From contig DATJGJ010000010.1 in assembly GCA_035495115.1 (NCBI GenBank), forward strand, positions 2,407 to 66,406: DNA of 64,000 nt, in the 5' to 3' direction. Position 1 is the first letter of the stretch; each line of letters starts with the position of its first letter. This document shows positions 27,535-63,044 of this stretch, piece after piece. The notes beneath the pieces were generated by a model that saw only the letters and a program-made list of their open reading frames with translations, ran no database searches and was not told where the DNA came from. The translations under genes were made by a program, and so were the position numbers. This DNA comes from Minisyncoccota bacterium (GTDB taxonomy: Bacteria > Patescibacteriota > Minisyncoccia > Phycocordibacterales > PALSA-1337).

Positions 27535-27628
27535 TTGAAATAGAAAACCGGTCTCATGGCCGGTTTTTTATTTGTGGATAACTTAGTTTGCGTGAAGCTA
27601 TAATCGCGCTATACTGTTCCCAACTACC

Positions 27629-27656
27629 CAAGCACGTGTCGAAAGACACGTGCTTG
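27629..27656 (+). promoter_or_regulatory. Perfect 12-bp-stem palindrome (operator or 5'UTR hairpin) upstream of a secreted-protein gene
   Basis: caagcacgtgtc-gaaa-gacacgtgcttg, located between a TATAAT box (27599-27604) and the ATG at 27688. Confidence 0.45.
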
Positions 27657-27687
27657 TCTCGTTATTAATTAATTAAAGCAAATTATC

Positions 27688-28230: not shown

Positions 28231-28273
28231 CAATATATAACGCAACAATAAAACTCCGAATACGTGCGGAGTT

Positions 28274-29092: not shown

Positions 29093-29254
29093 ACTATATC
29101 ACAGGGTATTTGTTTGTGGATAACTTCGCTTGGCATTTCTGAGAATAGAGATATAATTATCTCACTACCTAAGACGTGTCATCACTGGCAGGTCTTTTTC
29201 TATTTTACTTATTCGAAACAAGTGAATAGAAACTTAATCAATTAATATAGGTTA

Positions 29255-31120: not shown

Positions 31121-31140
31121 ACATAAAACTCTAATGCAAA

Positions 31141-31173
31141 AAACCGCTAAAGCACAATTTTAGCGGTTTTTTT
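31141..31173. terminator. Bidirectional rho-independent terminator
   Basis: aaccgctaaa-gcacaa-tttagcggtt perfect 10-bp stem with an A-run upstream and a T7 run downstream. Confidence 0.55.
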
Positions 31174-31193
31174 GTGCTCGAGTGGGGTTATAT

Positions 31194-31222
31194 TTGACAA
31201 CTTCACCCTCTATTGCTAATAT
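31194..31222 (+). promoter_or_regulatory. Sigma70-like promoter for tuf (TTGACA-17-TAATAT)
   Basis: TTGACA at 31194-31199, a 17-nt spacer, then TAATAT at 31217-31222. Confidence 0.45.
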
Positions 31223-31358
31223 GGCTGAATTCGCCTACCTGGCGTTTTATTAGTCATCCGACTGATAATTTATAAACTATTAATAACTTTATCTTTATCT
31301 TTTGATGTTTGGCATCACGCCTAAACGTAAAAAGGTAAAGCACTAAACAAATAATACT

Positions 31359-32549
31359 ATGGCAGCAGCAGAATTTAATCGTACCAAGCCTCACGTTAAC
31401 GTAGGCACAATCGGTCACGTTGACCACGGAAAGACAACTCTTACTACAGCTATCCTCGCCGTTCAGGCGAAGAAAGGTCTTGCTCAAAACAAGGCATATG
31501 CTGATATTGCAAAGGGTGGAACAGTTCGTGACGCTTCAAAGATCGTTACTATCTCTCTCGCGCACGTTGAATACGAGTCTCCTACTCGTCACTATGCGCA
31601 CATCGACGCTCCAGGTCACGCCGACTATATCAAGAACATGATTACTGGTGCCGCTCAAATGGACGGTGCAGTTCTCGTCGTATCAGCGCTTGATGGTGTT
31701 ATGCCACAGACACGTGAGCACGTTCTTCTTGCAAAACAAGTTGGTGTGCCTCGTATTGTCGTCTTTTTGAACAAGTGTGATGCAGTTCCAGAAGCTGATC
31801 TTATCGATCTCGTTGAGGAAGAAGTGCGTGAACTCCTCACAAAGCAAGGTTTCGACGGAAAGGGTGCCCCAGTCGTTCGTGGTTCAGCTCTCAAGGCTCT
31901 CGAAGGAGATGCTACATGGGAAGCGAAGATCGGCGAGCTCATGGATGCGTTGGACAACTATATTCCTATGCCAGTTCGTGAGACAGACAAGCCATTCCTC
32001 ATGCCTATCGAAGACATCTTCTCGATTGAAGGTCGTGGAACCGTGGTTACAGGCCGTATCGAGCGCGGTATGATCAAGGTTGGTGAAGAAGTTGAGATCA
32101 TCGGTTTCCGTGATACAACAAAGACAACTATCACTGGTATCGAAATGTTCAACAAGCAGCTCAAAGAAGGAATCGCTGGCGACAACGCTGGTCTCCTCCT
32201 CCGTGGTACAGCAAAGGATGACGTTTCTCGTGGTCAGGTCCTTGCAAAGCCAGGTTCAGTCAAGCCTCACACAGAATTTGAGTCTGAAGTATACGTTTTG
32301 AAGAAGGAAGAAGGTGGTCGCCACACCCCATTCTTTACTGGTTATAAGCCTCAGTTCTACATCCGTACGACAGACGTTACTGGTGAAGTTACACTCGCTG
32401 CAAACGTTGAAATGGTTATGCCAGGTGACACAGTCACATTCAAGGTTAAGCTCGTAGCACCAGTAGCTCTCGAAGAAAAGATGCGTTTCGCTGTCCGTGA
32501 AGGTGGCAAGACCGTCGGTGCAGGTGTCGTAACAAAGATCGTTGCCTAA
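31359..32549 (+). CDS. tuf: Elongation factor Tu
   Basis: [23 protein letters not shown] motifs and a full-length EF-Tu. Confidence 0.95.
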
Positions 32550-35653: not shown

Positions 35654-35764
35654 TCATGAGAAATGTCGCTCACGGTTTGCACAAGATCTTTGTGAAAGTC
35701 GTAAAAGCGACACTTCACAAGATGGTGATGTTCACTATCACAAAAGAGATTCTCTAAAGAGAAC

Positions 35765-35788
35765 AAAACACCCGAAAGGGTGTTTTTT
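35765..35788 (+). terminator. Rho-independent terminator after rplB
   Basis: aacaccc-gaaa-gggtgtt stem followed by T5. Confidence 0.5.
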
Positions 35789-35904
35789 GTTTCCGCCAAT
35801 AATCATTGACAAATTAGGAATTTCAAGTAGTTTTACAGCAGAACTTGAGGGGTAGCCGCCTCATATTCCAAAACTACAAGGCTACATAAGGAAAGAACAT
35901 TACA

Positions 35905-37122
35905 ATGAGAAAATCATTACTACAACCTGCCGGAGGTAATATCTTCCAGGCAGTCAAAGCTCAACGAGCCGAAGCTGAAAGAGCTGGCATCAAGATCATC
36001 AACCTTACGATTGGACAACCTGCTGGACCTGCCTTTGAAGCAGCCAGAAAGGCGGCTGCTGAGGCGGTCATGTCAGGGGCGGAGAACATGCACGAGTATC
36101 AGGACAACGCTTGTCATCCGTGTCCGGACTTTGCCTCACGTTTTGTCGCGTGCCACGTGTTCCGTGATCTTGAAGGCGCCGCAGTTGAATACTTGCCGAT
36201 CGTTGGCATCAAGCCGACGCTCGATATGGTCATTAAATCTTTGGGCACATGGGATCGTTCGGATGCCAAGCCTGCCCGAGTCTTCACTATGACCAATCCG
36301 GGCTATGGCACCTCCGCCTATGCTTGCAAAGCGATCAAGGGCATCGAGCAGTATCCTTTGCCCATGGATCAGAAGGATTGCTTTCTGTTCGATCCAGAAC
36401 TGATTAGGCTCAAGGAAGGCATCGTTCTTGGGGAAGGCGACATGATTATGTTGAACTTCCCGCACAATCCAACGGGCATCATTGCTCGTGAAGAATGGCT
36501 TCGTTGCTTGTGCGCCTTTTGCGAGTCTCGTGGCATTCGTTTGTTCAACGATGGCGCATATCATATCTTGGCTCACAATGATGATTCAGTGACTCTGGCT
36601 GATGTTGCGATTGATTTTCCCAATCTCAACTGGGCTGAAGCCTTCTCTGCTTCAAAGGCAGGTAACTTCACTGGATGGCGCATCGGTGCGATCGTTGGTT
36701 CGCCGGAGTTCGTGAACGATATCAAACGGATCAAAGGCGAATCTGATAGTGGCTTTGTTGCCTTTGCTGCTGCCGGTGTCTTGGATCAGTTTGAAAAACA
36801 TGGTTCCGACATTGTTCAGCTGCGGGGGCTTTACAAGAAACGTCTCAGGCTCGTAGCGGATACGCTGACTGGGAACGGCATGCGTCTCTCAGTTGAACCG
36901 GAGGCAGGTTTCTTCCTACTCTTCGATAGTCCGTCCTTGGCGTTCGGTCAAGAATGCGCCAATGCTGCTGAATTCAACGCATTGATGATCCAGAAGACAG
37001 GGATCGCCGGTGTCCCATTCGGCAAATGGATTCGTTATGCCATCTGTGCCACTGATGTTGAGGCAGTCATCAACGAAATCGAGGCAGGCTTTATGGTTGC
37101 CGAGGTTGTCTATTATAATTGA
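35905..37122 (+). CDS. PLP-dependent class I/II aminotransferase (DapL or AspC-like)
   Basis: 405 aa with NFPHNPTG, the SASKAGNFTGWRIG PLP-lysine motif, and a higher-GC composition than its neighbours. Confidence 0.7.
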   Translation: MRKSLLQPAGGNIFQAVKAQRAEAERAGIKIINLTIGQPAGPAFEAARKAAAEAVMSGAENMHEYQDNACHPCPDFASRFVACHVFRDLEGAAVEYLPIVGIKPTLDMVIKSLGTWDRSDAKPARVFTMTNPGYGTSAYACKAIKGIEQYPLPMDQKDCFLFDPELIRLKEGIVLGEGDMIMLNFPHNPTGIIAREEWLRCLCAFCESRGIRLFNDGAYHILAHNDDSVTLADVAIDFPNLNWAEAFSASKAGNFTGWRIGAIVGSPEFVNDIKRIKGESDSGFVAFAAAGVLDQFEKHGSDIVQLRGLYKKRLRLVADTLTGNGMRLSVEPEAGFFLLFDSPSLAFGQECANAAEFNALMIQKTGIAGVPFGKWIRYAICATDVEAVINEIEAGFMVAEVVYYN

Positions 37123-37221
37123 TTGTTTCTCCCTCACCTCGCCATCCGGTTTTTACTGGGTGGCGATTTTTAATATAAAAACCGTTCCCAGGGAAGGAAA
37201 CGGTGAGAATGAAGGAAGGCT

Positions 37222-37716
37222 TTAGAAAAAGAGAGGAGGGCTATTTTCCAAGAATGCCTTGAACAGTGCGCCAGCCTTTGCATTGATTTGGATGGCAAAA
37301 GTTTCGGCGGCAATATGGTCATCGTCTCCAGTTTTGAAGCCACTGATTGCAGTAACCAGATTGTTGAAGTAAACGCCGCCAGGAAACCTGAAGTCGCCCT
37401 CACAAATGAGTGCCGGTTTTTTGAACATATCAATGTTCGACATCTTGGTTCGCCAAGCTGCCCGAGCCTTCGCAAATGCGAACTCGCTGTATTTATGTGG
37501 CCATTTTGTTTCTTCCTGCTCACCGAGCGTGCCGCGCCACAATACCTGCGGATCAAGACCACTATCAACTGTTATGACCGGGTCCAATACGATGATGACC
37601 GCCGCGGTCCGACCAGGGACATTGGTGATGTATCTTTTGGTTAAATCAGCGCACTGCTCTTGGAATATTTCCTCAATCATTTCCGCGGTAACGAACTTTG
37701 ATTTTGACATGTTCAA
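37222..37716 (-). CDS. Hypothetical protein (possibly GlcG/DUF336-like)
   Basis: 164-aa ORF inside the higher-GC island. Only a weak resemblance to heme-binding DUF336 proteins. Confidence 0.3.
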   Translation of the reverse strand: MNMSKSKFVTAEMIEEIFQEQCADLTKRYITNVPGRTAAVIIVLDPVITVDSGLDPQVLWRGTLGEQEETKWPHKYSEFAFAKARAAWRTKMSNIDMFKKPALICEGDFRFPGGVYFNNLVTAISGFKTGDDDHIAAETFAIQINAKAGALFKAFLENSPPLFF

Positions 37717-37898
37717 GCCTTTGTTGTTGCCATCGCGTCATGCAATGGATCTGGCGTATTTCTACCTTTTTTGTATCGGTGTGTCAAACACATTTCTTGA
37801 CATTGCCCGAGATAATCAGTAGTCTTGCGACAGACACAGTATCGGCGGTCTGTGTTAAAAACTACCGCTATAACAACGTAATATGGAGAAAATTAGTT

Positions 37899-39206
37899 AT
37901 GCCAATGTCGAAAGACTTCGAAAAACGTTTGTTGGCCATTCTGCCACAAGTCATTGAAAAATTTGGGACACCATTTCACATCTATGATGAGCAGGGGATA
38001 TGCGAAGGCCTTCGTCGCTTGAACGGTGCTTTTGCATCGCACGAGTTGCCGTTCAAAGAATTCTACGCAGTGAAGGCTTTGCCGAAACCTGCCATTATGG
38101 AAATCATCAAGCGGGAAGGTTGCGGTTTCGACTGCAGTTCGATTCCCGAGCTCCGCTTGGCCCGCAACGCCGGCGCACGACCAGGGGACATCATGTTCAC
38201 TTCGAACAACACGTCTTTGAAAGAATTCCGGGAAGCTCTTGATCATGGTGGTTGCATCCTCAATCTCGACGGTATCGAATACATCGAGAAGGTCAAATCG
38301 CTCGGTGCATTTCCGGAGCTTATCTGTTTCCGGCTCAATCCCGGTGACCGTAAGACCGACAATGAAGTAAACTCGATCATTGGGAAGCCGAAGGAATCAA
38401 AGTATGGTGTGCCGATTGAAAATATCGTCACAGCTTACAGGTTGGCAAAGGAGGCCGGCGCAAAATCCTTCGGACTGCACACGATGGTGTGCAGCAATGA
38501 TCGGGACTACAAGCACATGGTTGCCACTTTCAAACTGTTGCTTGAAGTCGCGGAGCAACTTGAGAAAGAGTTGGGTATCGTGCTCGAATTCGTCAATGTC
38601 GGTGGGGGAGTGGGTATTCCATATCGTCCTGACGACACGGAATTCGACATCGAAGCATTCGCCAAGGACTGTTCGGCTCTTGCAGATGAATTCGAGTCGA
38701 AGCACGATTACGTCCCGCGAATCTTTATGGAAAGCGGGCGTTGGGTGACTGGTCAGCATGGCGTTCTGGTTAACCGCGTGATCAATACTTACGACAAATA
38801 CAAGAAGTTCGTGGGTGTTGAAGTGGCGATGCCGGCACTTATGCGACCTGGTATGTATGAAGTGTATCATCATTGCACTCTTCTCAACTCTGACGGGTCG
38901 CCGATCATTGAGGGGAGCCGTCCTCTGGTTCAAGTCACCGTTGCGGGATCAATATGCGAAAATTGTGATGTTCTCGCGCGCGACATTTGGTTGCCGGAAC
39001 CGCACGAAGGCGACCTGATTGTTACGCATACCACCGGGGCACATGGCACGGCGATGTGTTTCAATTATAATGGCAGGACCCGCATCCAAGAGCTGCTCAA
39101 TTACATAATGGGCTACGTTCGTCGCATCTGTCGCGCTGAAACCGATGATGACCTCGAAGTTCGTCATCGCGACCTCGAGGGTGAAGAACACGTTATCAAG
39201 GTTTGA
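37899..39206 (+). CDS. lysA: Orn/DAP/Arg decarboxylase family-2 PLP decarboxylase, most like diaminopimelate decarboxylase LysA
   Basis: FGTPFHIYDE, FYAVKALP (PLP lysine), NVGGGVGIPY, MESGRWV, LMRPGMYEVYHH, VAGSICENCD and THTTGAHG motifs all align to LysA. Start taken at MPMSKDF with a GGAG RBS. Confidence 0.7.
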   Translation: MPMSKDFEKRLLAILPQVIEKFGTPFHIYDEQGICEGLRRLNGAFASHELPFKEFYAVKALPKPAIMEIIKREGCGFDCSSIPELRLARNAGARPGDIMFTSNNTSLKEFREALDHGGCILNLDGIEYIEKVKSLGAFPELICFRLNPGDRKTDNEVNSIIGKPKESKYGVPIENIVTAYRLAKEAGAKSFGLHTMVCSNDRDYKHMVATFKLLLEVAEQLEKELGIVLEFVNVGGGVGIPYRPDDTEFDIEAFAKDCSALADEFESKHDYVPRIFMESGRWVTGQHGVLVNRVINTYDKYKKFVGVEVAMPALMRPGMYEVYHHCTLLNSDGSPIIEGSRPLVQVTVAGSICENCDVLARDIWLPEPHEGDLIVTHTTGAHGTAMCFNYNGRTRIQELLNYIMGYVRRICRAETDDDLEVRHRDLEGEEHVIKV

Positions 39207-39227
39207 CCAATTAACTCTAACTTCACA

Positions 39228-39259
39228 CCGGATCTCCCCACAGGGAAGTCCGGTTTTTT
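39228..39259 (+). terminator. Rho-independent terminator after the island
   Basis: ccgga...tccgg stem followed by T6. Confidence 0.45.
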
Positions 39260-39323
39260 ATTATTCGGTTTCTACGAAAGTTCACCATTCTTTTCAATAT
39301 CCATGAAAATAAGCCTTAAATGC

Positions 39324-39352
39324 TTGACTTCGAAATCTGGCTCTGCTACTAT
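39324..39352 (+). promoter_or_regulatory. Sigma70-like promoter for rpsS (TTGACT-17-TACTAT)
   Basis: TTGACT at 39324-39329, a 17-nt spacer, then TACTAT at 39347-39352. Confidence 0.4.
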
Positions 39353-39400
39353 ACCTCTCACGCTCATTTGAGCTTTTTTAATTCTACATTCACTCATTCC

Positions 39401-42433: not shown

Positions 42434-43006
42434 ATGACTACTACTCACAAGAAAACTGTTCTCGATTTAAATAAGGAATCATTCAAAGCTCTCAAGGACT
42501 CTTTGAACATCAAAAATGCTATGCAGGCTCCACAGCTCAAGAAAGTGGTTGTCAGTAGCAGTTTCGGTTCAGTGAAGGACAAGAAAAAGATTGAGATTAT
42601 CGCTGATCGTCTCGCTCGCATCACTGGCCAAAAGCCAGCCCCACGTGCAGCAAAGAAAGCTATCGCTACATTCAAGACTCGCGTCGGCGATCCTCTCGGC
42701 TACCAGATCACTCTCCGCGGCCCACGTATGTTCGATTTTATGGATCGTTTGATCAACATCGCTCTCCCTCGCACAAAGGACTTCCGCGGTCTCTCACGCA
42801 ACTCTGTCGACGCAATGGGCAACTATACGATCGGTATCAAGGAACACACTATCTTCCCAGAGACATCAGATGAAGACCTCAAGGACGTTTTTGGTCTCGC
42901 TATCACTCTCGTCACTACTTCAGATGACAAGGCAAAGACCATTGGCTTCCTCGAATACCTCGGTCTCCCACTCAAGAAAGAGGATGACAAGAAGGGAAAG
43001 AAATAA
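42434..43006 (+). CDS. rplE: 50S ribosomal protein L5
   Basis: 190-aa L5 family, in the conserved position before S14. Confidence 0.9.
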   Translation: MTTTHKKTVLDLNKESFKALKDSLNIKNAMQAPQLKKVVVSSSFGSVKDKKKIEIIADRLARITGQKPAPRAAKKAIATFKTRVGDPLGYQITLRGPRMFDFMDRLINIALPRTKDFRGLSRNSVDAMGNYTIGIKEHTIFPETSDEDLKDVFGLAITLVTTSDDKAKTIGFLEYLGLPLKKEDDKKGKK

Positions 43007-43011
43007 TATCT

Positions 43012-43038
43012 AAAAAACCACCGATGAGGTGGTTTTTT
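43012..43038 (+). terminator. Rho-independent terminator after rplE
   Basis: aaccacc-gatg-aggtggtt stem followed by T6. Confidence 0.5.
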
Positions 43039-43060
43039 GTTTTCTGCTATACTACCAGCC

Positions 43061-44905
43061 ATGACCCAAGCCGAAGCATTAAATATTCTCAAAACGGGTG
43101 CAAACGTTTTTCTGACCGGACCAGCGGGCAGCGGCAAAACCTACGTCCTCAGAGAATACCTCCAGTGCCTGCGTGAACGAGAGATACCCGTCGGCATCAC
43201 GGCCTCGACGGGTATTGCTGCAACTCATATGGGCGGTGTCACTATACACTCGTGGTCTGGCGTCGGCGTACGCGATACTCTCTCAGAGCAAGATCTCGAG
43301 GAGATTTCAGAAAAGAGCTATGTAAAGACAAAGATCGAAGCGGCGAAAGTACTCATCATCGATGAGATATCTATGCTTCATCATTTCCGTTTGGATTTGA
43401 TAAATGAAATAGTTAAAAAAATCCGTAAATCAGATCAGCCGTTCGGTGGACTGCAAGTAGTCGTGTGCGGCGACTTTTTCCAATTGCCGCCGATCTCTCG
43501 TGGGGGAGAGCCCGATGCCTATTTTGCCTACCATTCAAAGGCATGGAAGGAAGCTAATTTCGTCGTCTGCTACCTCGAAGAACAACATCGTCAGATAGAC
43601 AAAGAATACGTAGGTATCTTGAATGGTATACGTGCCCAGTCGCTTTCAACGGCAATGATGGATTTGTTGCACGGGCGCATCATTTCTCGCAATAAGAGAG
43701 AAGACGACGGCATTGAGTTTCTGACTGATGAGCATATGGGTGCTGAAGAAGACGTTGTTTTTATTGGCGATGAAGATGAAGTTAAAAAGAAAGTCGAAAC
43801 AGATATTCCTGTCGAGATCCCTACGATTTTGACAGAGAATATAAAAGCCACGCGACTTTATTCTCACAATAGTGACGTTGACGCTGAAAATGACCGTGAG
43901 CTTGCCGCTGTTCCGGGGAACTTCTTGGAGTACAAGATGATATCTCACGGCAATAAAAAGCTGGTCGAAGGATTGAAGAAATCATGTTTGGCACCGGAAG
44001 TTCTCCGCCTCAAAGTAGGCGCTCAAGTCATGTTCGTCAAGAATAATTGGGAAGTAGGATATGCCAATGGTACACGAGGCGTCGTCGCTGAATGTACGTA
44101 TGACAGCATTGTCGTCAAAACACTCGATGGGAGAGAGATCGATGTTCCACTCGAAAGTTGGCGTGTCGATGAGGGCGATAGGACGCTCGCCGAGATCGAG
44201 CAGTATCCATTGCGACTCGCATGGGCTATCACTATACATAAGAGTCAGGGCATGTCGCTCGACGCTGCACACATCGACCTATCACGTTCATTTGAGAAGG
44301 GTATGGGCTATGTAGCGCTCTCTCGTGTACGATCGCTCCTCGGGCTTACCTTGGCAGGTCTCAACGATGTAGCCTTACATATTCATCCGGAAGCGTATGA
44401 GTTTGATAAGCATTTTCGTGAACAATCCAAAAAAGCCGAGGCGCATTTTATGTCGTTGTCAGCAGATGATCTCAAGGCGCGACAAAAGAAATTCCTCGGC
44501 CCTGATCCAGTGACAAAAGAAGATGGTGAGTCAGATGAAGATTTTGCGGAGAGATCAAAAGCCGTAAAACGCACTAGAAAAGGCAAAAAACCAAAGATAC
44601 CTACGGCTGAAGTTACACGCAGTCTCATCGATATGGGAAAATCCGTCCGTGAAGTCGCCAAGGAGCGCGGTCTTTCATTTGATACTATCCTCAATCACAT
44701 AGAACATGAAAAAAGAGAAGATCCGACGTGGAATATCTCGCATCTCCGTGACGCGCTCCCGGTCACTCGTTTCAAGAAAATCTCAATGGCGTTTCATACG
44801 GTGGGTATGCAAGAGGGGGGAGGTAGAGCACTTTCACCAGTTAAAAACATATTGGGCAATGGTTTCACTTTTGAGGAGATCAGGCTCGTGAGATTATTTC
44901 TGTAA
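43061..44905 (+). CDS. Pif1-like (SF1B, RecD/Pif1 family) DNA helicase with C-terminal HTH
   Basis: Walker A GPAGSGKTY, LIIDEISM, GDFFQLPPI and IHKSQGMSLD helicase motifs. C-terminal HTH_40-like segment (TAEVTRSLIDMGKSVREVAKERGLSFDTILNHIE). Start set at ATG 43061, downstream of the terminator and a TATACT box. Confidence 0.75.
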   Translation: MTQAEALNILKTGANVFLTGPAGSGKTYVLREYLQCLREREIPVGITASTGIAATHMGGVTIHSWSGVGVRDTLSEQDLEEISEKSYVKTKIEAAKVLIIDEISMLHHFRLDLINEIVKKIRKSDQPFGGLQVVVCGDFFQLPPISRGGEPDAYFAYHSKAWKEANFVVCYLEEQHRQIDKEYVGILNGIRAQSLSTAMMDLLHGRIISRNKREDDGIEFLTDEHMGAEEDVVFIGDEDEVKKKVETDIPVEIPTILTENIKATRLYSHNSDVDAENDRELAAVPGNFLEYKMISHGNKKLVEGLKKSCLAPEVLRLKVGAQVMFVKNNWEVGYANGTRGVVAECTYDSIVVKTLDGREIDVPLESWRVDEGDRTLAEIEQYPLRLAWAITIHKSQGMSLDAAHIDLSRSFEKGMGYVALSRVRSLLGLTLAGLNDVALHIHPEAYEFDKHFREQSKKAEAHFMSLSADDLKARQKKFLGPDPVTKEDGESDEDFAERSKAVKRTRKGKKPKIPTAEVTRSLIDMGKSVREVAKERGLSFDTILNHIEHEKREDPTWNISHLRDALPVTRFKKISMAFHTVGMQEGGGRALSPVKNILGNGFTFEEIRLVRLFL

Positions 44906-44960
44906 TTAACAGGTCATTGCTGTTATTCTGACTGAGCTAGGTTATACTTTGTGTATACTT

Positions 44961-46103
44961 ATGATCAATAAACAACTGCTTGATTACATCTCATACAAAC
45001 TTGCTCATGGCTCAAGCGATGAGGCTATAGTTCAAAAAATCTTAGCAGAAGGTAGTTGGACAACTGCGGATATCAACGAGGCGTTCGCTGCGCTCGGCCG
45101 AAGTGTTCCAGAAAACAAAAAGCCCCAATTTATTGTACCTCCAATTGTACCTCCAATTTCAGCAACAATTGCACCAAAACCACCAGCCACACTTTCTGTG
45201 CCAGTTCGAGAACCTCTGACTCCTCCACCAGCGCCAATGCCGATCGTACCAAAACCGGAGGTTCAGCCAATACCAAAACCTACACCTCTTCCGGAAACCG
45301 CTCCGGTATCTCAAGCATGGGAAATGCCGCCTCGTGAAAAATCTCCCGCATCATCATTTCCACGTCCATCAGTTCCAACGCCACCGCTCCCGCAAACATC
45401 TGCATCGCATGTATTTGTAGCTCCAGTAAATCAGCGCCAGACTTCCACACATTCCGGGGCGCGTATTATCATTATCCTTCTCATTGTCGCCATTCTTGGA
45501 GGTGCGGGCGCATATATGTATTTGTATCGATTCGATACTGTACAATCGCTCATAAAGAGTATTGCTGGAAAGAGTGAGTCTACCACAGCCCCAAGTCCTT
45601 CAGTCCAAAAGCCGATAAAGAGAACTCCTGCTATGGTTAATAATGCATCATACAGTTTCGTATTACCTGATGGTTGGCAGGCATCAGCCTCATCAAATGA
45701 TGGTCAAGGCGTCCAAGCTTCAAATCCAACAACGGGATTTGTAGTATCGACAGCTATCACTCAAATCCCTAAAAGCGCAGGCGCTATCAGTTCGATTGAT
45801 CAGATAATGACGTCTGATACAACAAAGGCAATCATCAAATCAGAGTTCCCTGGCATGACTGTTGCTTTCGGCAAGGTAAGTGCCGGTATGCTCGGGGGAG
45901 AGAAGGCGGTTATTGTGGCTTTTACTTTGACAGCAACAAGCACAACTGATGGAGTCGAACAATTAAAGACCAAAGCGATGTTACAGTATAGTGCGGTGCA
46001 TGAGGGTATTTTATATAGTGTTGTTTTCAAATCAGATTTGGATAAAGGGTTGGATTTACTAAAAGATGCTGAGACTATAGCGGGAAGCTTTACGTTTATG
46101 TAG
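44961..46103 (+). CDS. Pro-rich membrane protein (cytoplasmic N-terminal helical domain, Pro-rich linker, one TM, extracytoplasmic domain)
   Basis: MINKQLLDYISYKLAHGSSDEAIVQKIL..., then a PxxP-rich segment (IVPPIVPPISA...PPPAPMPIVPKPEVQPIPKPTPLPE), a TM (IIIILLIVAILGGAGAYMYLY), and a roughly 190-aa C-terminal domain. Confidence 0.45.
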   Translation: MINKQLLDYISYKLAHGSSDEAIVQKILAEGSWTTADINEAFAALGRSVPENKKPQFIVPPIVPPISATIAPKPPATLSVPVREPLTPPPAPMPIVPKPEVQPIPKPTPLPETAPVSQAWEMPPREKSPASSFPRPSVPTPPLPQTSASHVFVAPVNQRQTSTHSGARIIIILLIVAILGGAGAYMYLYRFDTVQSLIKSIAGKSESTTAPSPSVQKPIKRTPAMVNNASYSFVLPDGWQASASSNDGQGVQASNPTTGFVVSTAITQIPKSAGAISSIDQIMTSDTTKAIIKSEFPGMTVAFGKVSAGMLGGEKAVIVAFTLTATSTTDGVEQLKTKAMLQYSAVHEGILYSVVFKSDLDKGLDLLKDAETIAGSFTFM

Positions 46104-46120
46104 GTTACAAAGAGAGACTA

Positions 46121-46149
46121 TTGACCCTTTATGCATCATCTGCTAGTAT
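46121..46149 (+). promoter_or_regulatory. Sigma70-like promoter (TTGACC-17-TAGTAT) driving rpsZ and the distal spc genes, with a roughly 100-nt leader
   Basis: TTGACC at 46121-46126 and TAGTAT at 46144-46149. Confidence 0.35.
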
Positions 46150-46254
46150 CATACCTACCTCAATAAAAGCTCGTTCTGAGGAAGTGATTGGAAGCAAACG
46201 CCTAAATTAAGGGCTTTAGCTAACCAATCGAAATTTTGTTTAAATAAACACATT

Positions 46255-46440
46255 ATGGCAACTAAAGCAGTCATTGCACGCTCAAAGAGAACACCGAAGT
46301 TTGCTTCGCGTGTTGTTCGTCGTTGTTTCCGTTGTGGTCGTAAGCACGGTTATATGCGTGATTTTGACCTCTGCCGTATTTGTTTCCGTGAATTCGCCAA
46401 TGAAGGCATTATCCCAGGCATAAAGAAATCATCATGGTAA
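46255..46440 (+). CDS. rpsZ: 30S ribosomal protein S14, Zn-ribbon (Z) type
   Basis: 61 aa with [23 protein letters not shown] (C4 zinc ribbon). Confidence 0.85.
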
Positions 46441-47756: not shown

Positions 47757-48443
47757 ATGCAAGACAAAGACACACAGGTTAATACACAAGCTCCAGTAGC
47801 ACCAGCGACAGTTGTTCCAGCAGTCGCAAACAAGGTCACTCCAGGACGCAAGATGCGTGATTCAGCGCGTGCAGGCACACCAGGTGCTCGTAGCAGCAGC
47901 GATACACGCGGACGCGGCGGACGTACTGGCGGAGGACGTGGCAGTGAGCCACGTGAGCGTGTTAAGCCAGAATTCGATGCAAAGATGATCGATATTCGTC
48001 GTGTTACTCGTGTGTCATCAGGCGGACGTCGCTATAGCTTCAGTGTCGCTGTCGTCGCAGGTGATCGCAAGGGTCGTGTTGGTGTTGGTCTCGGTAAGGC
48101 AGGTGATACATCACTCGCTATCGAAAAGGCTACCCGTGAAGCAAAGAAGCACCTTGTCAAAGTTCCGCTTTCTGCTCAGATGACTATCCCTCACGCAACT
48201 TCAGCGAAGTTTGGCAGTGCTCGCATCATGGTATTCCCAGCTCGTGGTAGCGGTATCGTTGCAGGTAGTTCAGCACGTACAGTTATCGAGCTCGCAGGTA
48301 TCAAAGATGTCTGTGCAAAGATCATGTCAGGTTCAAAGAACAAGGTGAACATCGCTCGTGCTATCATCCTCGCTTTCGATAACTTGAGCAGGATCAATCG
48401 CCGCACTCTCCAGAACAAGGCGCCTAAAGTAGCTGCTAAATAA
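47757..48443 (+). CDS. rpsE: 30S ribosomal protein S5 (Arg/Gly-rich N-terminal extension)
   Basis: IDIRRVTRVSSGGRRYSFSVAVVAGDRKGRVGVGLGKA S5 dsRBD and C-terminal domain. The next gene is rplO with no rpmD between them. Confidence 0.9.
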   Translation: MQDKDTQVNTQAPVAPATVVPAVANKVTPGRKMRDSARAGTPGARSSSDTRGRGGRTGGGRGSEPRERVKPEFDAKMIDIRRVTRVSSGGRRYSFSVAVVAGDRKGRVGVGLGKAGDTSLAIEKATREAKKHLVKVPLSAQMTIPHATSAKFGSARIMVFPARGSGIVAGSSARTVIELAGIKDVCAKIMSGSKNKVNIARAIILAFDNLSRINRRTLQNKAPKVAAK

Positions 48444-48454
48444 CTTTTAATACT

Positions 48455-49051
48455 ATGCAATTCCATCAACTTAAACGAGTCCACAAGAACAAGAAGCGCA
48501 TGACGGTTGCCCGTGGTGGCAAGCGTGGAAAGACATCTGGCCGTGGTGGCAAGGGTCAGTCTGCTCGTGCAGGTAACAAGCGCCGTCCAGAATGGCGTGA
48601 CATCATCAAGCGCCTCCCAAAGTTGCGTGGTCGTGGCGTCAACCAGCACAAGCCAGTTTCAGATGCATTCAAGGCTATCAATGTCAGTTTGATCGAAGCT
48701 ATCTTCAATGCAGGAGATATGGTTACTCCTACTTCTCTCGTTGAAAAGGGTGCAGTTGCTACATTTTCAGGAAACATTCCTCCTATCAAGATTCTTGGCG
48801 ACGGTGAGATCACCAAGGCTGTCAAAGTCTCAGGATGTGCTCTCTCGGGCAGTGCAAAAGAAAAGATCGAGAAGGCAGGCGGTACAGTCACACTCATCAC
48901 TCCAAAGGTTATTTCAAAGCCAGTAAAGGCTCCTAAAGTTAAAAAAGAAAAGGTTGCATCAGAAGCAGCTCCAGCAAAAGAAATCGCAGAAAAGAAGCCT
49001 ATTAAGGCAGCTGCAAAAAAGGCTCCAGCAAAGAAAGCAAAAGCCGAGTAA
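48455..49051 (+). CDS. rplO: 50S ribosomal protein L15 (Lys/Ala-rich C-terminal extension)
   Basis: MQFHQLKRVHKNKKRMTVARGGKRGKTSGRGGKGQ L15 N-terminus. Confidence 0.85.
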   Translation: MQFHQLKRVHKNKKRMTVARGGKRGKTSGRGGKGQSARAGNKRRPEWRDIIKRLPKLRGRGVNQHKPVSDAFKAINVSLIEAIFNAGDMVTPTSLVEKGAVATFSGNIPPIKILGDGEITKAVKVSGCALSGSAKEKIEKAGGTVTLITPKVISKPVKAPKVKKEKVASEAAPAKEIAEKKPIKAAAKKAPAKKAKAE

Positions 49052-49101: not shown

Positions 49102-50373
49102 ATGCAAAACTTCTGGCAAAAATTCACCACAGCTCTCAAGGATCCAGTTCTCCGCAAGAGAATAGGCTTTACTATCGGCGCGCTCCTCGTCTTTCGTCTT
49201 TTGGCGACTATTCCAATACCAGGCGTCGATGTAGCAAATCTTTCTAAACTCCTCGCTTCAAGCCAGTTCTTCGGTTTCCTCAACATCTTTTCGGGCGGAG
49301 GCCTCTCGAATCTTTCTATCGTCATGCTTGGTGTCGGTCCTTTTATCACCGCATCGATCATTATCCAGCTCATGACCATGATGTTCCCAAAGTGGAAGGC
49401 TCTCATGCATGATGAAGGTCAAGCTGGCCGCATGAAGCTCTCGAACTATTCACGTATTCTTTCTGTGCCACTTGCTATCGTTCAAGCTATCGGCTTCATC
49501 ATCCTTCTCGAAAATCAGAACGTTATCGCTCATATCGGTGGTATGCAGCTCGCTATCAACGTGCTCGTCGTCTCTGCAGGCTCTATCCTCCTTATGTGGA
49601 TCGGTGAGCTCGTATCGGAGTTCGGTATCGGTAATGGTGTTTCTCTCGTTATCTTCGCAGGTATCGTTTCTCGTTTGCCAAAGGATGCTGTTCAGTTCCT
49701 CTCAACATTCGACTCAAGTCAGATCACGGTCTATCTCGCAGTCCTTGCAGTTGCAATCATCGTTATTGCTGGCGTGGTCTTTGTCACTGAGGCTGAACGT
49801 TCAGTTCCCGTGACTTATGCAAAGCAGGTCCGTGGCAACAAAGTCTATGGAGGCGTTTCCACGTATCTCCCGCTCCGTCTCAACCAAGCAGGCGTTATTC
49901 CTATCATCTTCGCTCTCTCTATTCTTTTGTTCCCTCAGATCATCGCCAACTTCCTCTCTCATGCATCAAATGCAGCTATTGCAGCGTATGCGTCATCATT
50001 TGCAACATTCTTCAATAGCGCATGGGTATATGGCAGTTTCTACTTTATACTCGTTGTTCTCTTCACGTACTTCTATACTGCAGTTACCTTCGATCCTACG
50101 ATGATCTCGCAGAACCTCCAGCAGGGAGGCGCATTCATCCCAGGCGTACGTCCTGGTGATCACACTCGTGATTATCTCGCGGCTATCGTTACCCGTATCA
50201 CTCTCGTCGGCGCAGTCTTCCTTGGTGTTGTAGCCATCTTGCCGCTCATGATGCAGCATCTCACTGGCGTTCAGACGCTCGCTATAGGTGGTACATCTCT
50301 CTTGATCGTGGTCTCAGTCGTTCTCGACCTTTTGAAGAAGATTGATGCTCAGGTATCGATGCGTGAATATTAA
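49102..50373 (+). CDS. secY: Preprotein translocase subunit SecY
   Basis: 423 aa, 10 TM segments, GVDVANL...LNIFSGG and GIQPGI-type motifs. Confidence 0.95.
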   Translation: MQNFWQKFTTALKDPVLRKRIGFTIGALLVFRLLATIPIPGVDVANLSKLLASSQFFGFLNIFSGGGLSNLSIVMLGVGPFITASIIIQLMTMMFPKWKALMHDEGQAGRMKLSNYSRILSVPLAIVQAIGFIILLENQNVIAHIGGMQLAINVLVVSAGSILLMWIGELVSEFGIGNGVSLVIFAGIVSRLPKDAVQFLSTFDSSQITVYLAVLAVAIIVIAGVVFVTEAERSVPVTYAKQVRGNKVYGGVSTYLPLRLNQAGVIPIIFALSILLFPQIIANFLSHASNAAIAAYASSFATFFNSAWVYGSFYFILVVLFTYFYTAVTFDPTMISQNLQQGGAFIPGVRPGDHTRDYLAAIVTRITLVGAVFLGVVAILPLMMQHLTGVQTLAIGGTSLLIVVSVVLDLLKKIDAQVSMREY

Positions 50374-50488: not shown

Positions 50489-51085
50489 ATGTCACCACAA
50501 GCATTCATTTTCGTCGGCAGATCTGGAAGCGGAAAAGGTACTCAAGTAGCTCTTCTTTTAGAGGTGCTCAAGCAAAAGGATCCGACTCATAAGATTTTCA
50601 CTGTTGAAACAGGCAAAGAGCTCCGTAAATTCATCGAGGGAGACACATTCACCCAAAAGCTCGCTCACAAGATCCAGACGTCTGGCGGATTCCAGCCTTC
50701 ATTTCTCGCTATCTACAACTGGGCAAAGGTTTTCATTGATACTTATGAAGAGGGTATGCACATGGTCCTCGACGGCACGTCGCGCAGGCTCCCTGAAGCA
50801 ATCGCTCTTGATTCAGTTTTTGATTTTTATGGCATCTCAAAATGTTGGGTCGTATACCTCGACATTCATGATGAAGAAGCGACCAACCGTCTCCTTGCCC
50901 GCGGTCGTGCAGATGATACGCATGAGGGTATCAAGAACCGTCTCAGTGGTTTTGAGCAGGACATGAAGCCGTCAATCGAATTTTTTAGAAACAATAAGAG
51001 ATATGATTTTTTGGACATAAACGGCATAGGTAAGATAGAAGACATTCACGCCGATATTGTGAAAAAGCTCGGTCTCGATAAATAG
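50489..51085 (+). CDS. adk: Adenylate kinase
   Basis: P-loop GRSGSGKGTQ and the position after secY. Divergent and lid-less. Confidence 0.8.
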   Translation: MSPQAFIFVGRSGSGKGTQVALLLEVLKQKDPTHKIFTVETGKELRKFIEGDTFTQKLAHKIQTSGGFQPSFLAIYNWAKVFIDTYEEGMHMVLDGTSRRLPEAIALDSVFDFYGISKCWVVYLDIHDEEATNRLLARGRADDTHEGIKNRLSGFEQDMKPSIEFFRNNKRYDFLDINGIGKIEDIHADIVKKLGLDK

Positions 51086-58049: not shown

Positions 58050-58417
58050 TCGGGGATGAATTTGGCATCGACAATCGACAGTTTTCGTTCGTGCGGTGCG
58101 AGCACCAGTAACTCGTAAATCTGCTGGAAATCCAATTGCAAAATCTTCTGTCTCTCCATATTTTGGAGCAAAGGACTTTCAATTCGCTCTCGTTTAACGA
58201 GGCCGTCTACCTACTGGGATCCTGACGGTAGGCTGGGCGTAATAACCTGGATGTAGGGCAGGTAGAGCTTCTCACTCTATCTCCTGAAACAATGAGATCG
58301 TGATCATGTGTTTTGTTTTCTTTCAAGCATGATCATTAAACTTTAAAGGATTCTACCACCGTAGAGTCGCTCGATGAACTTCGATTGCACGGCGGTTCGA
58401 TTCCGCCCATCTCCACC
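58050..58417 (+). ncRNA. ssrA: tmRNA (ssrA), one-piece, immediately downstream of smpB
   Basis: 5' GGGGATGAATTTGGCATCGAC (acceptor plus D-analog). 3' GGCGGTTCGATTCCGCCCATCTCCACC (T-arm plus acceptor, complementary to the 5' GGGGATG). An internal in-frame tag ORF ends in FALV-TAA. Confidence 0.75.
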
Positions 58418-58424
58418 GAAAACA

Positions 58425-62970: not shown

Positions 62971-63044
62971 CCGCCCTTAGCTCAGTTGGTTAGAGCACAG
63001 AGCTTATACCTCTGGGGTCCTTGGTTCGAATCCAAGAGGGCGGA
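62971..63044 (+). tRNA. tRNA-Ile with anticodon UAU (decodes AUA). CCA is not encoded.
   Basis: Manual cloverleaf: acceptor CCGCCCT/AGGGCGG, D-arm GCTC-AGTTGGTTA-GAGC, anticodon stem CAGAG/CTCTG with loop CT-TAT-AC, T-arm CTTGG-TTCGAAT-CCAAG, and discriminator A. Confidence 0.75.

What the first reader, a model, noticed from the sequence alone, without database searches (positions are those of the whole stretch)
43007..46254. Second insertion splitting the spc cluster: a Pif1-like helicase and a Pro-rich membrane protein between rplE and rpsZ
rplE-rpsN/Z-rpsH is normally contiguous. Here a terminator follows rplE. Then come a 614-aa Pif1/RecD-family helicase with a C-terminal HTH and a 380-aa protein with a cytoplasmic helical head, a long PxxP linker, one TM and an external domain. 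A fresh promoter with a roughly 100-nt leader then precedes rpsZ. Pif1-like helicases are frequent in mobile or defence contexts. Placement in the ribosomal superoperon is unusual and may mark a hitch-hiking module or a lineage-specific operon rearrangement.
Basis: partly seen in the sequence, partly recalled or inferred. Interest (0 to 1): 0.55.

Follow-up and report, generated by a model that had tools for sequence, protein, structure and literature searches.

The report
Lineage-specific break in ribosomal gene cluster
In one small group of ultra-small (Patescibacteria) bacteria the ribosomal-protein gene cluster is permanently split between rplE and rpsZ, and the gap holds the group's ordinary Pif1-type DNA helicase and a fast-evolving surface protein; it is an inherited gene-order change, not a mobile or defence element.

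Summary
After rplE come a terminator, a 614-aa Pif1-family helicase with a C-terminal HTH_40 domain, and a 380-aa single-pass membrane protein. A promoter and a roughly 100-nt leader then precede rpsZ.

The "hitch-hiking mobile or defence module" reading is not supported. All 8 close relatives examined (helicase 67-96% identical by the search table or global alignment) carry the helicase in this same rplE|rpsZ gap. Sister lineages (48-53% identical) hold it at a different conserved locus, helicase-methyltransferase-trpS-aspS-scpAB. None of 80 GTDB loci has it near r-protein genes.

The helicase evolves like a core gene: dN/dS is 0.02, as for secY. There are no integrase genes, flanking repeats or GC anomaly, and no full-length match to a defence model.

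The membrane protein has only 3 homologues among 5.8 billion proteins, all directly downstream of the helicase in this gap. It is about 52% identical where the helicase is 95%. It combines a three-helix head, a Pro-rich linker, a TM helix and a PsbP-like ectodomain, and it is related to head-RDD-pilin-like-PsbP proteins that also live in the gap.

The other gap genes differ between genomes, so the gap is a gene-turnover hotspot. The 88-nt rpsZ leader core is strongly conserved and is a candidate new ribosomal-protein leader.

The parts
42434..43006 (+). rplE (L5), last gene of the upstream ribosomal-protein transcription unit
   Evidence: ORF. Pfam Ribosomal_L5 and L5_C on the identical gene. 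It is 93-98% identical in relatives.
43011..43039 (+). Intrinsic terminator after rplE: hairpin ACCACC/GGTGGT flanked by an A-run and a T-run, so it could act in both directions
   Evidence: An equivalent hairpin plus T-run lies after rplE in L001, L085, L086 and L089.
43045..43053 (+). Extended -10 promoter element TGCTATACT, ending 7 nt before the helicase ATG. This implies a leaderless or near-leaderless helicase mRNA (inferred).
   Evidence: Sequence. TGnTATACT lies 7-9 nt before the ATG in L085, L086, L087 and L001. No transcript data are available.
43061..44905 (+). Pif1-family SF1B DNA helicase, 614 aa. It has the helicase core, a 2B domain, a clade-specific acidic insertion at about residues 201-262, and a C-terminal HTH_40 domain at residues 515-611.
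   Evidence: Pfam. The best PDB sequence matches are human PIF1 (E 4e-69), yeast Pif1 (1e-65) and Bacteroides Pif1 (1e-48). More than 8000 homologues were found. dN/dS is 0.02.
44961..46103 (+). Fast-evolving single-pass envelope protein, 380 aa. It has a three-helix head (residues 1-47), a Pro-rich disordered linker (48-165), a TM helix (about 167-185) and a PsbP/Mog1-like C-terminal domain (about 225-380, nt 45633-46100).
   Evidence: It is 50-54% identical in genomes where the helicase is 95-96% identical. dN is 0.40 and dN/dS about 0.2.
46121..46149 (+). Sigma-70-type promoter of the rpsZ transcription unit (TTGACC, 17-nt spacer, TG-extended TAGTAT)
   Evidence: The hexamers are conserved while the spacer varies in 6 genomes.
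46150..46254 (+). rpsZ 5' leader. The 88-nt core (46150-46237) folds into two hairpins, CCUCA...UGAGG and GAUUGG-AGC-GCCU...GGGC-GCU-CCAAUC, followed by a U-rich tract. It is a candidate autoregulatory ribosomal-protein leader.
   Evidence: The core is 100% identical in L085 and 84-99% identical in L086, L087, L089 and L001. The same fold is predicted independently for each sequence, and the apical stem is kept by different sequences. There is no Rfam match.
46255..46440 (+). rpsZ (zinc-type S14, 61 aa), first gene of the downstream unit rpsZ-rpsH-rplF-rplR-rpsE-rplO-secY
   Evidence: It is 100% identical at protein level in all 5 relatives compared.

Best explanation
This is a vertically inherited, lineage-specific break in the S10-spc ribosomal-protein gene cluster of a narrow clade of Paceibacterota (Patescibacteria).

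In this clade the cluster is cut into separately promoted units. An intrinsic terminator closes the rpsS-rplE unit. A conserved sigma-70-type promoter plus an 88-nt structured leader opens the rpsZ-secY unit.

The space between is ordinary chromosome that has become a gene-turnover hotspot. Its one constant resident is the clade's copy of the Pif1-family 5'-3' DNA helicase with a C-terminal HTH_40 domain, a helicase that is widespread across Paceibacterota. In sister lineages that gene sits next to a PF10672 methyltransferase, trpS, aspS and scpAB. In this clade it was moved into the gap (or, less likely, copied there).

The helicase has its own extended -10 promoter ending 7 nt before the ATG, so it is probably a leaderless mRNA. 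It evolves under housekeeping-level purifying selection. It therefore most likely serves genome maintenance: unwinding structured DNA or RNA-DNA hybrids, or clearing obstacles at replication forks, as proposed for bacterial Pif1s. It is unlikely to serve ribosome biology or defence.

The 380-aa protein is a lineage-restricted envelope protein with a cytoplasmic three-helix head, a Pro-rich tether, one TM helix and an extracytoplasmic PsbP-like domain. It recombines the head and the PsbP-like end of a longer head-RDD-pilin-like-PsbP family that also resides in the gap. It diverges about 15 times faster than its neighbours, as exposed surface proteins do. The two genes are neighbours, not a functional module.

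Shown: gene identities, synteny, selection regimes and conservation of the signals. Inferred: transcription starts, membrane topology, direction of the relocation, and the biochemical roles.
For: Identity of the helicase:
- Pfam gives PIF1, Pif1_2B and HTH_40.
- The best PDB sequence matches are eukaryotic and bacterial Pif1.
- Helicase-core residues, including the GSGKT of Walker A, DE of motif II and GDFFQLPP, are invariant in 29 homologues.
- A degenerate Pif1 signature, DLINEIVKKIRKSDQPFGGLQ, aligns to that of hPIF1 (consensus from PMC3113762).

Synteny:
- The helicase lies in the rplE|rpsZ gap in the window and in the genomes of P0010, P0014, P0004, P0007, P0123, P0124 and P0122.
- The gap partners vary: PemK, FGase, MFS, FolC-like, RDD, CYTH/AAA_28, DUF2007 and small ORFs.
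- 80 GTDB loci with 51% or lower identity have no r-protein gene within 10 kb of the helicase.
- The closest outgroups (L003/4, L006-L008, L011, L090) share helicase-(methyltransferase)-trpS-aspS-scpAB (L011 shows trpS-aspS-scpAB but no methyltransferase match).

Selection:
- Helicase dN/dS is 0.020-0.023, against 0.029-0.047 for secY and 0.015-0.056 for r-proteins.
- Membrane protein dN is 0.40, against 0.025-0.030 for the helicase.

No mobile-element hallmarks. No defence membership.

Membrane protein:
- It has 3 homologues only, all at this site.
- Its C-terminal domain family has 24 representatives among 1.84 billion proteins.
- Distant members carry head + RDD + pilin-like + PsbP-like domains.
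- The AF2 model of the C-terminal domain has pLDDT 74.7. The Foldseek top hit is cyanobacterial PsbP at E 7e-8 and TM 0.71/0.75.

Signals: the terminator, promoters and leader are conserved. rpsS has an analogous terminator-promoter-leader arrangement.
Against: - I could not examine a whole genome of the clade. A second Pif1/HTH_40 copy at the ancestral methyltransferase-trpS locus (duplication rather than relocation) is therefore not excluded. The only hint against it is that no second helicase hit shares a contig with the clade's copies among the top 120 hits.
- No transcript data exist. No terminator separates the membrane gene from the rpsZ promoter, so read-through coupling with the r-protein unit is possible.
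- In the 4 genomes that have the membrane protein it is always directly downstream of the helicase, which leaves some room for a functional link.
- The covariation evidence for the leader rests on only 5 distinct sequences.
- The clade sample is 8 genomes, and the boundary between 53% and 67% helicase identity was not sampled.
Confidence: 0.76

Rival explanations
1. One reading: the helicase and membrane protein are a hitch-hiking two-gene module, either a mobile element or an anti-phage system, that inserted into the ribosomal superoperon.
For: SF1B and Pif1-like helicases are common in phages: 464 phage records match, best 40.6% identity. They are also common as cores of defence proteins, and PADLOC gives partial hits to RecD_like, typeIV_RecD and PDC-S68. 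PemK toxin genes occur in the same gap in L001 and L085. The gap content is variable.
Against: - The position is fixed in all 8 clade genomes, and divergence tracks the r-proteins.
- dN/dS of 0.02 is typical of a core gene.
- The PADLOC matches cover only about 150-200 residues of the ATPase core of 700-1270-position models.
- There are no integrase genes, repeats, tRNA or GC shift.
- The membrane protein is absent from phage records and from PADLOC.
- The helicase occurs without the membrane protein in thousands of genomes.
Confidence: 0.04
2. The helicase and the membrane protein work together, for example as a membrane-tethered DNA-processing or DNA-uptake unit. The cytoplasmic head and Pro-rich tether would recruit the helicase.
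For: The membrane gene is directly downstream of the helicase (13-66 nt apart, same strand, no terminator) in all 4 genomes that have it. Relatives of the family carry a pilin-like domain. The window encodes competence and pilus genes: PilB-like, ComEC and RecJ.
Against: - Four of 8 clade genomes, and all distant genomes, have the helicase without any head, RDD or PsbP-like gene nearby.
- dN differs 13-16 fold, so there is no sign of co-evolution.
- The same head domain is found on RDD proteins that are not adjacent to the helicase.
- The helicase does not differ between genomes with and without the partner, apart from the length of its insertion.
Confidence: 0.07
3. The gap copy is an extra paralogue. 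The clade would keep the ancestral helicase at the methyltransferase-trpS-scpAB locus, and the gap copy would be a duplicate with a specialised role.
For: Whole genomes were not available, so the ancestral locus in the clade was not seen. The gap copy carries a clade-specific acidic insertion of variable length, giving proteins of 553-679 aa.
Against: - Purifying selection is as strong as on secY.
- All catalytic motifs are invariant.
- Identity to outgroup orthologues (about 50%) is what the r-protein divergence would predict.
- No second helicase shares any clade contig among the top 120 hits.
- Patescibacterial genomes are small and rarely keep duplicates (general knowledge).
Confidence: 0.12
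4. The arrangement is an assembly or binning artefact: a chimeric contig joins r-protein genes to unrelated DNA.
For: The window comes from a metagenome-assembled genome, since the identical membrane protein is annotated as a MAG protein.
Against: The same junctions (rplE-terminator-helicase and gap-promoter-leader-rpsZ) are recovered in at least 8 independent assemblies from JGI, ENA, NCBI and Logan.
Confidence: 0.01

Closest known systems
Bacterial and eukaryotic Pif1-family SF1B helicases (human PIF1 6HPT/5FHH, yeast Pif1 5O6B, Bacteroides BaPif1 5FHD)
   Same: The full helicase core carries motifs I-VI, the 2B domain and a degenerate Pif1 signature sequence. These are the best sequence matches in the PDB (E 4e-69 to 1e-48). 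Pfam PIF1 and Pif1_2B_dom are well above threshold.
   Different: It carries a C-terminal HTH_40 domain (residues 515-611) and a clade-specific acidic insertion of about 60 aa between domains 1A and 2A. Neither is matched in the Pif1 chains hit, whose aligned stretches stop at about query residue 454. The physiological role of bacterial Pif1s is still unknown (PMC3113762). Biochemical activity was not tested here.
RecD2 and RecD/TraA-type SF1B helicases, including defence-associated RecD-like proteins (PADLOC RecD_like, type IV-D CRISPR RecD)
   Same: They share the SF1B ATPase core (NCBIfam RecD2 E 3e-20; PADLOC RecD_like E 7e-22).
   Different: Scores are far below the family cut-offs: RecD2 gives 72 bits against 500, and recD 44.5 against 310. 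Only the core aligns. There are no partner genes of any defence system and no relaxase domain.
PsbP/Mog1-like fold proteins: cyanobacterial PsbP (2XB3), plant PsbP, mycobacterial LpqN, Apa and MTC28, Salmonella DcrB
   Same: The C-terminal 155 residues are predicted to adopt this fold (Foldseek E 7e-8, TM 0.71/0.75 to 2XB3). The weak Pfam PsbP match spans the whole profile. Like LpqN, Apa, MTC28 and DcrB, it would be an extracytoplasmic envelope domain. Apa and MTC28 are also Pro-rich.
   Different: Sequence identity is only 13-18% and the Pfam score (16.4 bits) is below the cut-off (23.5). The organism has no photosystem. The architecture (three-helix head, Pro-rich linker, TM) is its own. 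The family is tiny, with 24 representatives in 1.84 billion proteins.
Autoregulated ribosomal-protein operon leaders, for example E. coli spc operon control by S8
   Same: A conserved, structured 5' UTR sits directly upstream of an r-protein transcription unit that encodes S8 as its second gene. The leader core is 100% identical between genomes whose flanking genes have dS of about 0.4-1.3.
   Different: No Rfam family matches. In E. coli the S8 site lies at rplE, not before rpsN/Z (my own knowledge). The regulator, rRNA mimicry and mechanism are untested. The covariation evidence is thin.
Canonical S10-spc-alpha ribosomal-protein superoperon synteny
   Same: Gene order within each block is the standard one: rpsS-rplV-rpsC-rplP-rpmC-rpsQ-rplN-rplX-rplE, then rpsZ-rpsH-rplF-rplR-rpsE-rplO-secY-adk-map.
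   Different: The breaks at rplB|rpsS and rplE|rpsZ (and rpsG|fusA and fusA|tuf in the window) do not coincide with the classical E. coli operon boundaries. Each break carries lineage-variable cargo. rpmD is absent, as is usual for CPR bacteria (my own knowledge).

Membership tests
Pif1 family of SF1B helicases | Pfam PIF1 helicase domain above the gathering score | tested here: met
   PF05970 at 134.1 bits against a cut-off of 25.9, E 7e-39.
Pif1 family of SF1B helicases | Pif1 family signature sequence (DKLeXvARaiRkqXkPFGGIQ) between motifs II and III (definition from PMC3113762) | tested here: met
   The window has DLINEIVKKIRKSDQPFGGLQ right after DEISM. It aligns to the signature of human PIF1. 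It is degenerate in the first half, with PFGG.Q exact; F128, G129, G130 and Q132 are invariant in 29 homologues.
Pif1 family of SF1B helicases | Conserved SF1 motifs I, II, III, IV, V and VI | tested here: met
   Walker A (G A-GSGKT), DE.SM, GDFFQLPP, R-Q, and the H-KSQG and S-R motif region are invariant in alignment A1.
Pif1 family of SF1B helicases | Closer to Pif1 than to RecD-type helicases | tested here: met
   The top 18 of 19 PDB sequence matches are Pif1 proteins. NCBIfam RecD2 gives 72 bits against a 500 cut-off, and recD 44.5 against 310.
Pif1 family of SF1B helicases | ATP-dependent 5'-3' DNA unwinding activity | not testable with these tools
   This needs biochemistry. It is inferred from intact motifs and strong purifying selection.
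Mobile genetic element or genomic island | Integrase, transposase or recombinase gene, and flanking direct or inverted repeats or a tRNA target | tested here: not met
   The gap holds only two ORFs, neither a recombinase. Only short chance-level repeats were found. The nearest tRNA is 17 kb away.
Mobile genetic element or genomic island | Compositional deviation from the flanks | tested here: not met
   GC is 0.458-0.473 across 43-46 kb, against 0.41-0.49 in the flanking r-protein genes.
Mobile genetic element or genomic island | Patchy presence or variable location among close relatives | tested here: not met
   The helicase is at the same site in 8 of 8 clade genomes, with divergence proportional to the r-proteins. 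Other cargo genes in the gap are patchy, however.
Known anti-phage defence systems (PADLOC-DB v2) | Full-length match to a defence protein model, plus the system's partner genes | tested here: not met
   Only the ATPase core (about residues 3-215) matches 700-1270-position models. The membrane protein has no hit.
Conserved two-gene helicase and membrane-protein module | Co-occurrence of the pair across genomes and at more than one kind of locus | tested here: not met
   The pair is present in 4 genomes only, always at this locus. It is absent from the 4 other clade genomes and from 86 other helicase loci.
PsbP / Mog1-like domain superfamily | Sequence membership (Pfam PsbP above the gathering score) | tested here: not met
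   16.4 bits against a cut-off of 23.5, E 0.0095, although the match spans profile positions 11-154 of 155.
PsbP / Mog1-like domain superfamily | Fold similarity to solved PsbP/Mog1-like structures | tested here: met
   The AF2 model has pLDDT 74.7 and pTM 0.71. Foldseek gives 2XB3 at E 6.8e-8 and TM 0.71/0.75. There are 31 PDB hits at E<=1e-3, and the 32 top-ranked matches are all of this fold: PsbP, LpqN, Apa, DcrB, Mog1 and EagT6. The model has moderate confidence and was built from 4 sequences.
Autoregulatory ribosomal-protein leader RNA | Conserved structured element in the 5' UTR of an r-protein operon | tested here: met
   The 88-nt core is 84-100% identical in 6 genomes. The same two hairpins are predicted independently in each.
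Autoregulatory ribosomal-protein leader RNA | Covariation supporting the structure | tested here: inconclusive
   The apical stem occurs as GCCU/GGGC, GCCUA/UGGGC, GCC/GGC, GGCC/GGCC and AGCC/GGCU. The other stems are invariant. RNAalifold counted no compensatory pair because the indel region is misaligned. There are only 5 distinct sequences.
Autoregulatory ribosomal-protein leader RNA | Match to a described family, or mimicry of the regulator's rRNA site | tested here: not met
   No Rfam hit at gathering score or at E<=10 over 46100-46260. rRNA mimicry could not be tested because the window holds no rRNA gene.

The most novel reading that the evidence does not exclude
The break itself has functional consequences.

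First, the 88-nt rpsZ leader would be a previously undescribed autoregulatory RNA. It would have arisen, or been recruited, when the spc cluster was split, giving the orphaned rpsZ-rpsH-...-secY unit its own feedback control. The regulator would most plausibly be S8 or another encoded r-protein binding hairpin 2, perhaps acting with the downstream U-tract as an attenuator.

Second, the gap would serve as a protected site where envelope genes (the head-RDD-pilin-PsbP family) are shuffled and diversify rapidly. In episymbiotic Patescibacteria that would make the 380-aa protein a candidate determinant of host or phage interaction.
Probability: 0.3. Interest if true: 0.5.

Novelty: new member of a known kind. 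Interest (0 to 1): 0.3.

Why it matters
The main value is as a correction. A helicase inside the most conserved gene cluster in bacteria looks like a mobile or defence insertion. Comparative data show it is a fixed, clade-specific rearrangement involving a core genome-maintenance gene.

Three modest points of wider interest follow:
- In this Patescibacteria clade the str-S10-spc superoperon is fragmented at non-classical positions into separately promoted units. The gaps behave as gene-turnover hotspots, which is useful to know when r-protein synteny is used for binning or phylogeny of CPR genomes.
- The Pif1/HTH_40 helicase appears to be widespread and strongly constrained in Paceibacterota. 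That makes these minimal genomes a good place to ask what bacterial Pif1 helicases are for, a question still open since 2011 (PMC3113762).
- The conserved rpsZ leader and the hypervariable PsbP-like surface protein are concrete, testable candidates for a new r-protein regulatory RNA and for a cell-surface interaction determinant.

Tried and rejected
It returned only relatives at 51% identity or less. These served as an outgroup sample but did not recover the close clade.
- The metagenome scan with a leader pattern found only the contig already held (L088, the same contig as L001).
- Rfam at gathering score and at E<=10 found nothing on the leader. Weak snoRNA-like and sRNA hits inside the helicase CDS and on the terminator are chance matches.
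- RNAalifold and MAFFT alignments of the leader misalign the indel-containing apical stem, so a formal covariation count was not meaningful. I used per-sequence folds instead.
- Pfam, NCBIfam and PADLOC on the full 380-aa protein and on its head domain gave no hit. Only the isolated C-terminal domain gave a sub-threshold PsbP match.
- A literature search for Pif1 in Patescibacteria/CPR found no paper that mentions both. A second search failed on a term that was too short.
- I considered S8-site mimicry in hairpin 2 from memory of E. coli 16S helix 21 and did not claim it. The resemblance (an AAG/GCU-AA internal loop) is partial, and the lineage's own rRNA is not available.
- I searched for head, RDD or PsbP-like genes near the helicase in 86 non-clade loci. 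One weak head-like match (L063, E 6e-4) and pilin-like matches in L054 and L067 lie 5-10 kb from the helicase; no RDD or PsbP-like gene was found and nothing is adjacent to the helicase. This argues against an old helicase and membrane-protein association.

Full report
**Observation**

- rplE ends at 43006. A 12-bp hairpin with a T-run follows at 43011-43039.
- A 614-aa ORF runs from ATG 43061 to 44905. The ATG is the true start, because M1-T2-Q3 are invariant in 29 homologues.
- After a 55-nt spacer, a 380-aa ORF runs from 44961 to 46103. Its start matches its homologues.
- A TTGACC-17-TAGTAT promoter-like site with an upstream TG lies at 46121-46149.
- rpsZ starts 105 nt further on, at 46255, and is overlapped by rpsH.

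Pfam assigns the first protein PIF1 (134 bits), Pif1_2B_dom and a C-terminal HTH_40 domain.

A full-length AlphaFold model of the second protein shows:
- a confident three-helix head (residues 4-44);
- a disordered stretch (52-165) that is 29% proline;
- one hydrophobic helix (167-185);
- a beta-rich C-terminal domain.

**Organism and setting**

The identical 380-aa protein is annotated in NCBI as a hypothetical protein of a Candidatus Paceibacterota MAG. The helicase's named homologues are from Paceibacterota, Parcubacteria and Patescibacteria. rpmD is missing between rpsE and rplO, as is usual for CPR bacteria (my own knowledge).

The window's r-protein cluster is broken at several places.
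- Between rplB and rpsS lie a DapL-like aminotransferase and LysA.
- Between rpsG and fusA, and between fusA and tuf, lie ORFs with no Pfam match.

**The helicase**

It is a genuine Pif1-family SF1B helicase.
- Its best matches among solved structures are human PIF1 (E 4e-69), yeast Pif1 (1e-65) and Bacteroides Pif1 (1e-48).
- The motifs are invariant in the family alignment.
- The stretch after motif II, DLINEIVKKIRKSDQPFGGLQ, corresponds to the Pif1 signature DKLeXvARaiRkqXkPFGGIQ (PMC3113762).
- RecD2 and RecD models score far below their cut-offs.
- PADLOC defence models match only the generic ATPase core.

The family is very large. More than 8000 homologues have E<=1e-10, and 592 of the first 600 candidate stretches in GTDB species representatives encode a relative.

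**Synteny**

I examined eight genomes whose helicase is 67-96% identical to the window's (67-76% by the search table, 95-96% by global alignment). In all of them the helicase lies between rplE and rpsZ. The helicase is the only constant resident of the gap. Its neighbours there differ from genome to genome:

| Genome | Gap content (in order) |
|---|---|
| window | helicase, membrane protein |
| L085 | helicase, membrane protein, PemK (minus strand), FolC-like ligase |
| L086 | AAA_28/CYTH protein, helicase, membrane protein, RDD protein, small ORF |
| L087 | helicase, membrane protein, RDD protein, two small membrane ORFs |
| L089 | two small ORFs, helicase, MFS, 544-aa RDD protein, two small ORFs |
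| P0004 genome | helicase, small ORF, MFS |
| L001 | four ORFs, helicase, PemK (minus strand), FGase, MFS |
| P0014 genome | DUF2007 ORF, helicase |

In contrast, none of 80 GTDB loci with helicases at 51% identity or less has rplX, rplE, rpsZ, rpsH or rplF within 10 kb.

The closest outgroups (48-53% identity: L003/4, L006, L007, L008, L011, L090) share a different conserved neighbourhood: HisK-(tyrS)-helicase-PF10672 methyltransferase-trpS-aspS-scpA-scpB. The simplest reading is one relocation of the helicase gene into the rplE|rpsZ gap in the ancestor of a narrow clade, followed by vertical inheritance.

**Selection**

I compared the window with L085, L086 and L087.
- The helicase is 95-96% identical at protein level, the r-proteins 95-100% and SecY 94-96%.
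- Nei-Gojobori estimates give helicase dN/dS of 0.020-0.023, r-proteins 0.015-0.056 and secY 0.029-0.047.
- This is the signature of a core gene, not of an accessory or decaying insertion.
- The region has no GC anomaly, no meaningful flanking repeats, no nearby tRNA and no recombinase gene.
- Phage Pif1-like helicases exist (464 records) but reach only 40.6% identity.

**The membrane protein**

It has only three homologues (43-48% identity) among 5.8 billion clustered proteins. All three lie directly downstream of a 614-aa helicase in this same gap. It is absent from the other four clade genomes.

It diverges far faster than its neighbours. Protein identity is 50-54% and dN is about 0.40, which is 13-16 times the helicase value. 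dN/dS is about 0.2 overall, 0.24-0.39 in the linker and 0.06-0.10 in the C-terminal domain.

The C-terminal domain has these properties:
- It gives a sub-threshold, full-length Pfam PsbP match.
- Its model (pLDDT 74.7) matches cyanobacterial PsbP at E 7e-8 and TM 0.71/0.75. Further matches are plant PsbP, mycobacterial LpqN, Apa and MTC28, DcrB and Mog1.
- An exhaustive profile search finds only 24 representative relatives.

Many of those relatives have a larger architecture: the same N-terminal head, an RDD multi-pass domain, a pilin-like domain and the PsbP-like end.

Exactly such a 544-aa protein sits in the gap of L089. In L086 and L087 the membrane gene is followed by a 360-aa head-RDD-pilin-like protein that lacks the PsbP-like end. 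The window's protein is therefore best seen as a recombined or fission derivative (head plus PsbP-like end) of an envelope-protein family resident in this gap.

In the 86 helicase loci outside the clade, no RDD or PsbP-like gene was found. One weak head-like match and two loci with pilin-like matches lie 5-10 kb from the helicase. This argues against an old functional partnership.

**Signals and how the locus probably works**
- The rplE terminator is conserved.
- The helicase is preceded by TGCTATACT, ending 7 nt before its ATG. The same arrangement (7-9 nt) occurs in L085, L086, L087 and L001. This suggests an extended -10 promoter and a leaderless mRNA, which is inferred.
- No terminator lies between the membrane gene and the rpsZ promoter, so some read-through is possible.
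- The rpsZ promoter hexamers are conserved while the spacer varies.
- The 88-nt leader core is 100% identical between the window and L085, although dS in flanking genes is 0.4-1.3. It is 84-86% identical in the most distant clade members.
- Each leader sequence independently folds into the same two hairpins. The apical stem of the second hairpin is kept with different sequences. A U-rich tract follows.
- No Rfam family matches.
- rpsS, downstream of the other break, has an analogous terminator, TTGACT-17-TACTAT promoter and short conserved leader.

Together these features indicate that in this clade the superoperon is run as several independently promoted units. The rpsZ leader is a candidate autoregulatory element. 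Its regulator is unknown. S8 is the obvious guess by analogy with E. coli (my own knowledge), but this was not tested.

**Verdict**

The feature is real but ordinary in kind. It is a fixed, lineage-specific rearrangement that placed a core Pif1/HTH_40 helicase in a gap of the ribosomal-protein cluster. Next to it is a fast-evolving, lineage-restricted envelope protein of a known fold.

Three uncertainties remain:
- whether the clade also keeps a second helicase at the ancestral locus;
- the actual transcript structure;
- whether the leader is regulatory.

Noticed in passing
window 35654-39400: This is the first break of the cluster, between rplB and rpsS. It holds a DapL-like aminotransferase (35905-37122), a 164-aa minus-strand ORF with no Pfam match (37222-37716) and a LysA-like diaminopimelate decarboxylase (37902-39206, 270 bits against a cut-off of 298). 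Convergent terminators lie at 37139-37166 and 37204-37181. L085 has the same cargo, while other clade genomes carry different genes there.
   Followed up: partly
window 39210-39400 (promoter-like site 39324-39352): Upstream of rpsS there is a terminator hairpin, a TTGACT-17-TACTAT promoter and a short leader with a GCUCA/UGAGC hairpin. These are nearly identical in the window, L085, L086 and L089. The design matches the one before rpsZ.
   Followed up: partly
window 23708-31358: There are further breaks in the str cluster. Between rpsG and fusA lies a 274-aa ORF with no Pfam match (24415-25239), in a GC dip of 0.35. Between fusA (25369-27534) and tuf (31359-32549) lie three ORFs with no Pfam match: 180 aa, 272 aa on the minus strand, and 621 aa at 29255-31120.
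   Followed up: partly
window 62971-63045: A tRNA-Ile with anticodon UAU. This is unusual for bacteria, which mostly read AUA with a lysidine-modified CAU tRNA (my own knowledge).
   Followed up: no
window 47757-48443 and 48455-49051: S5 (228 aa) has a low-complexity, Arg/Gly-rich N-terminal extension of about 70 aa. L15 (198 aa) has a Lys/Ala-rich C-terminal tail. A clade relative (the P0014 genome) has 148-aa and 152-aa versions, so these extensions vary within the clade.
   Followed up: no
L085 15616-16818, L086 15334-16536, L087 9244-10446: Relatives carry a minus-strand Cys/Met-metabolism PLP enzyme gene between secY and adk. The window has no gene there (secY 49102-50373, adk 50489-51085). 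This is another soft spot in the cluster.
   Followed up: no
L001 7831-7930 and L089 7872-7970: A conserved non-coding stretch of about 100 nt with hairpins (CCCCGCCGAAGCGGAG..., GGGCTT.CGCCC) lies between a conserved 155-aa ORF and the helicase in two clade genomes. It could be a terminator plus a small RNA or regulatory element. It is absent from the window.
   Followed up: no
L001 9790-10224 and L085 9234-9668: A PemK-family toxin gene on the minus strand sits in the rplE|rpsZ gap of two relatives. No antitoxin gene was called in L085. Toxin genes are typical hotspot cargo.
   Followed up: no
window 6640-8388, 15517-17346, 18161-19561: The window also encodes a PilB-like T2SSE ATPase, RecJ and ComEC. 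These fit the DNA-uptake lifestyle reported for Patescibacteria (my own knowledge). tmRNA is at 58052-58418 and FtsH at 60460-62382.
   Followed up: no
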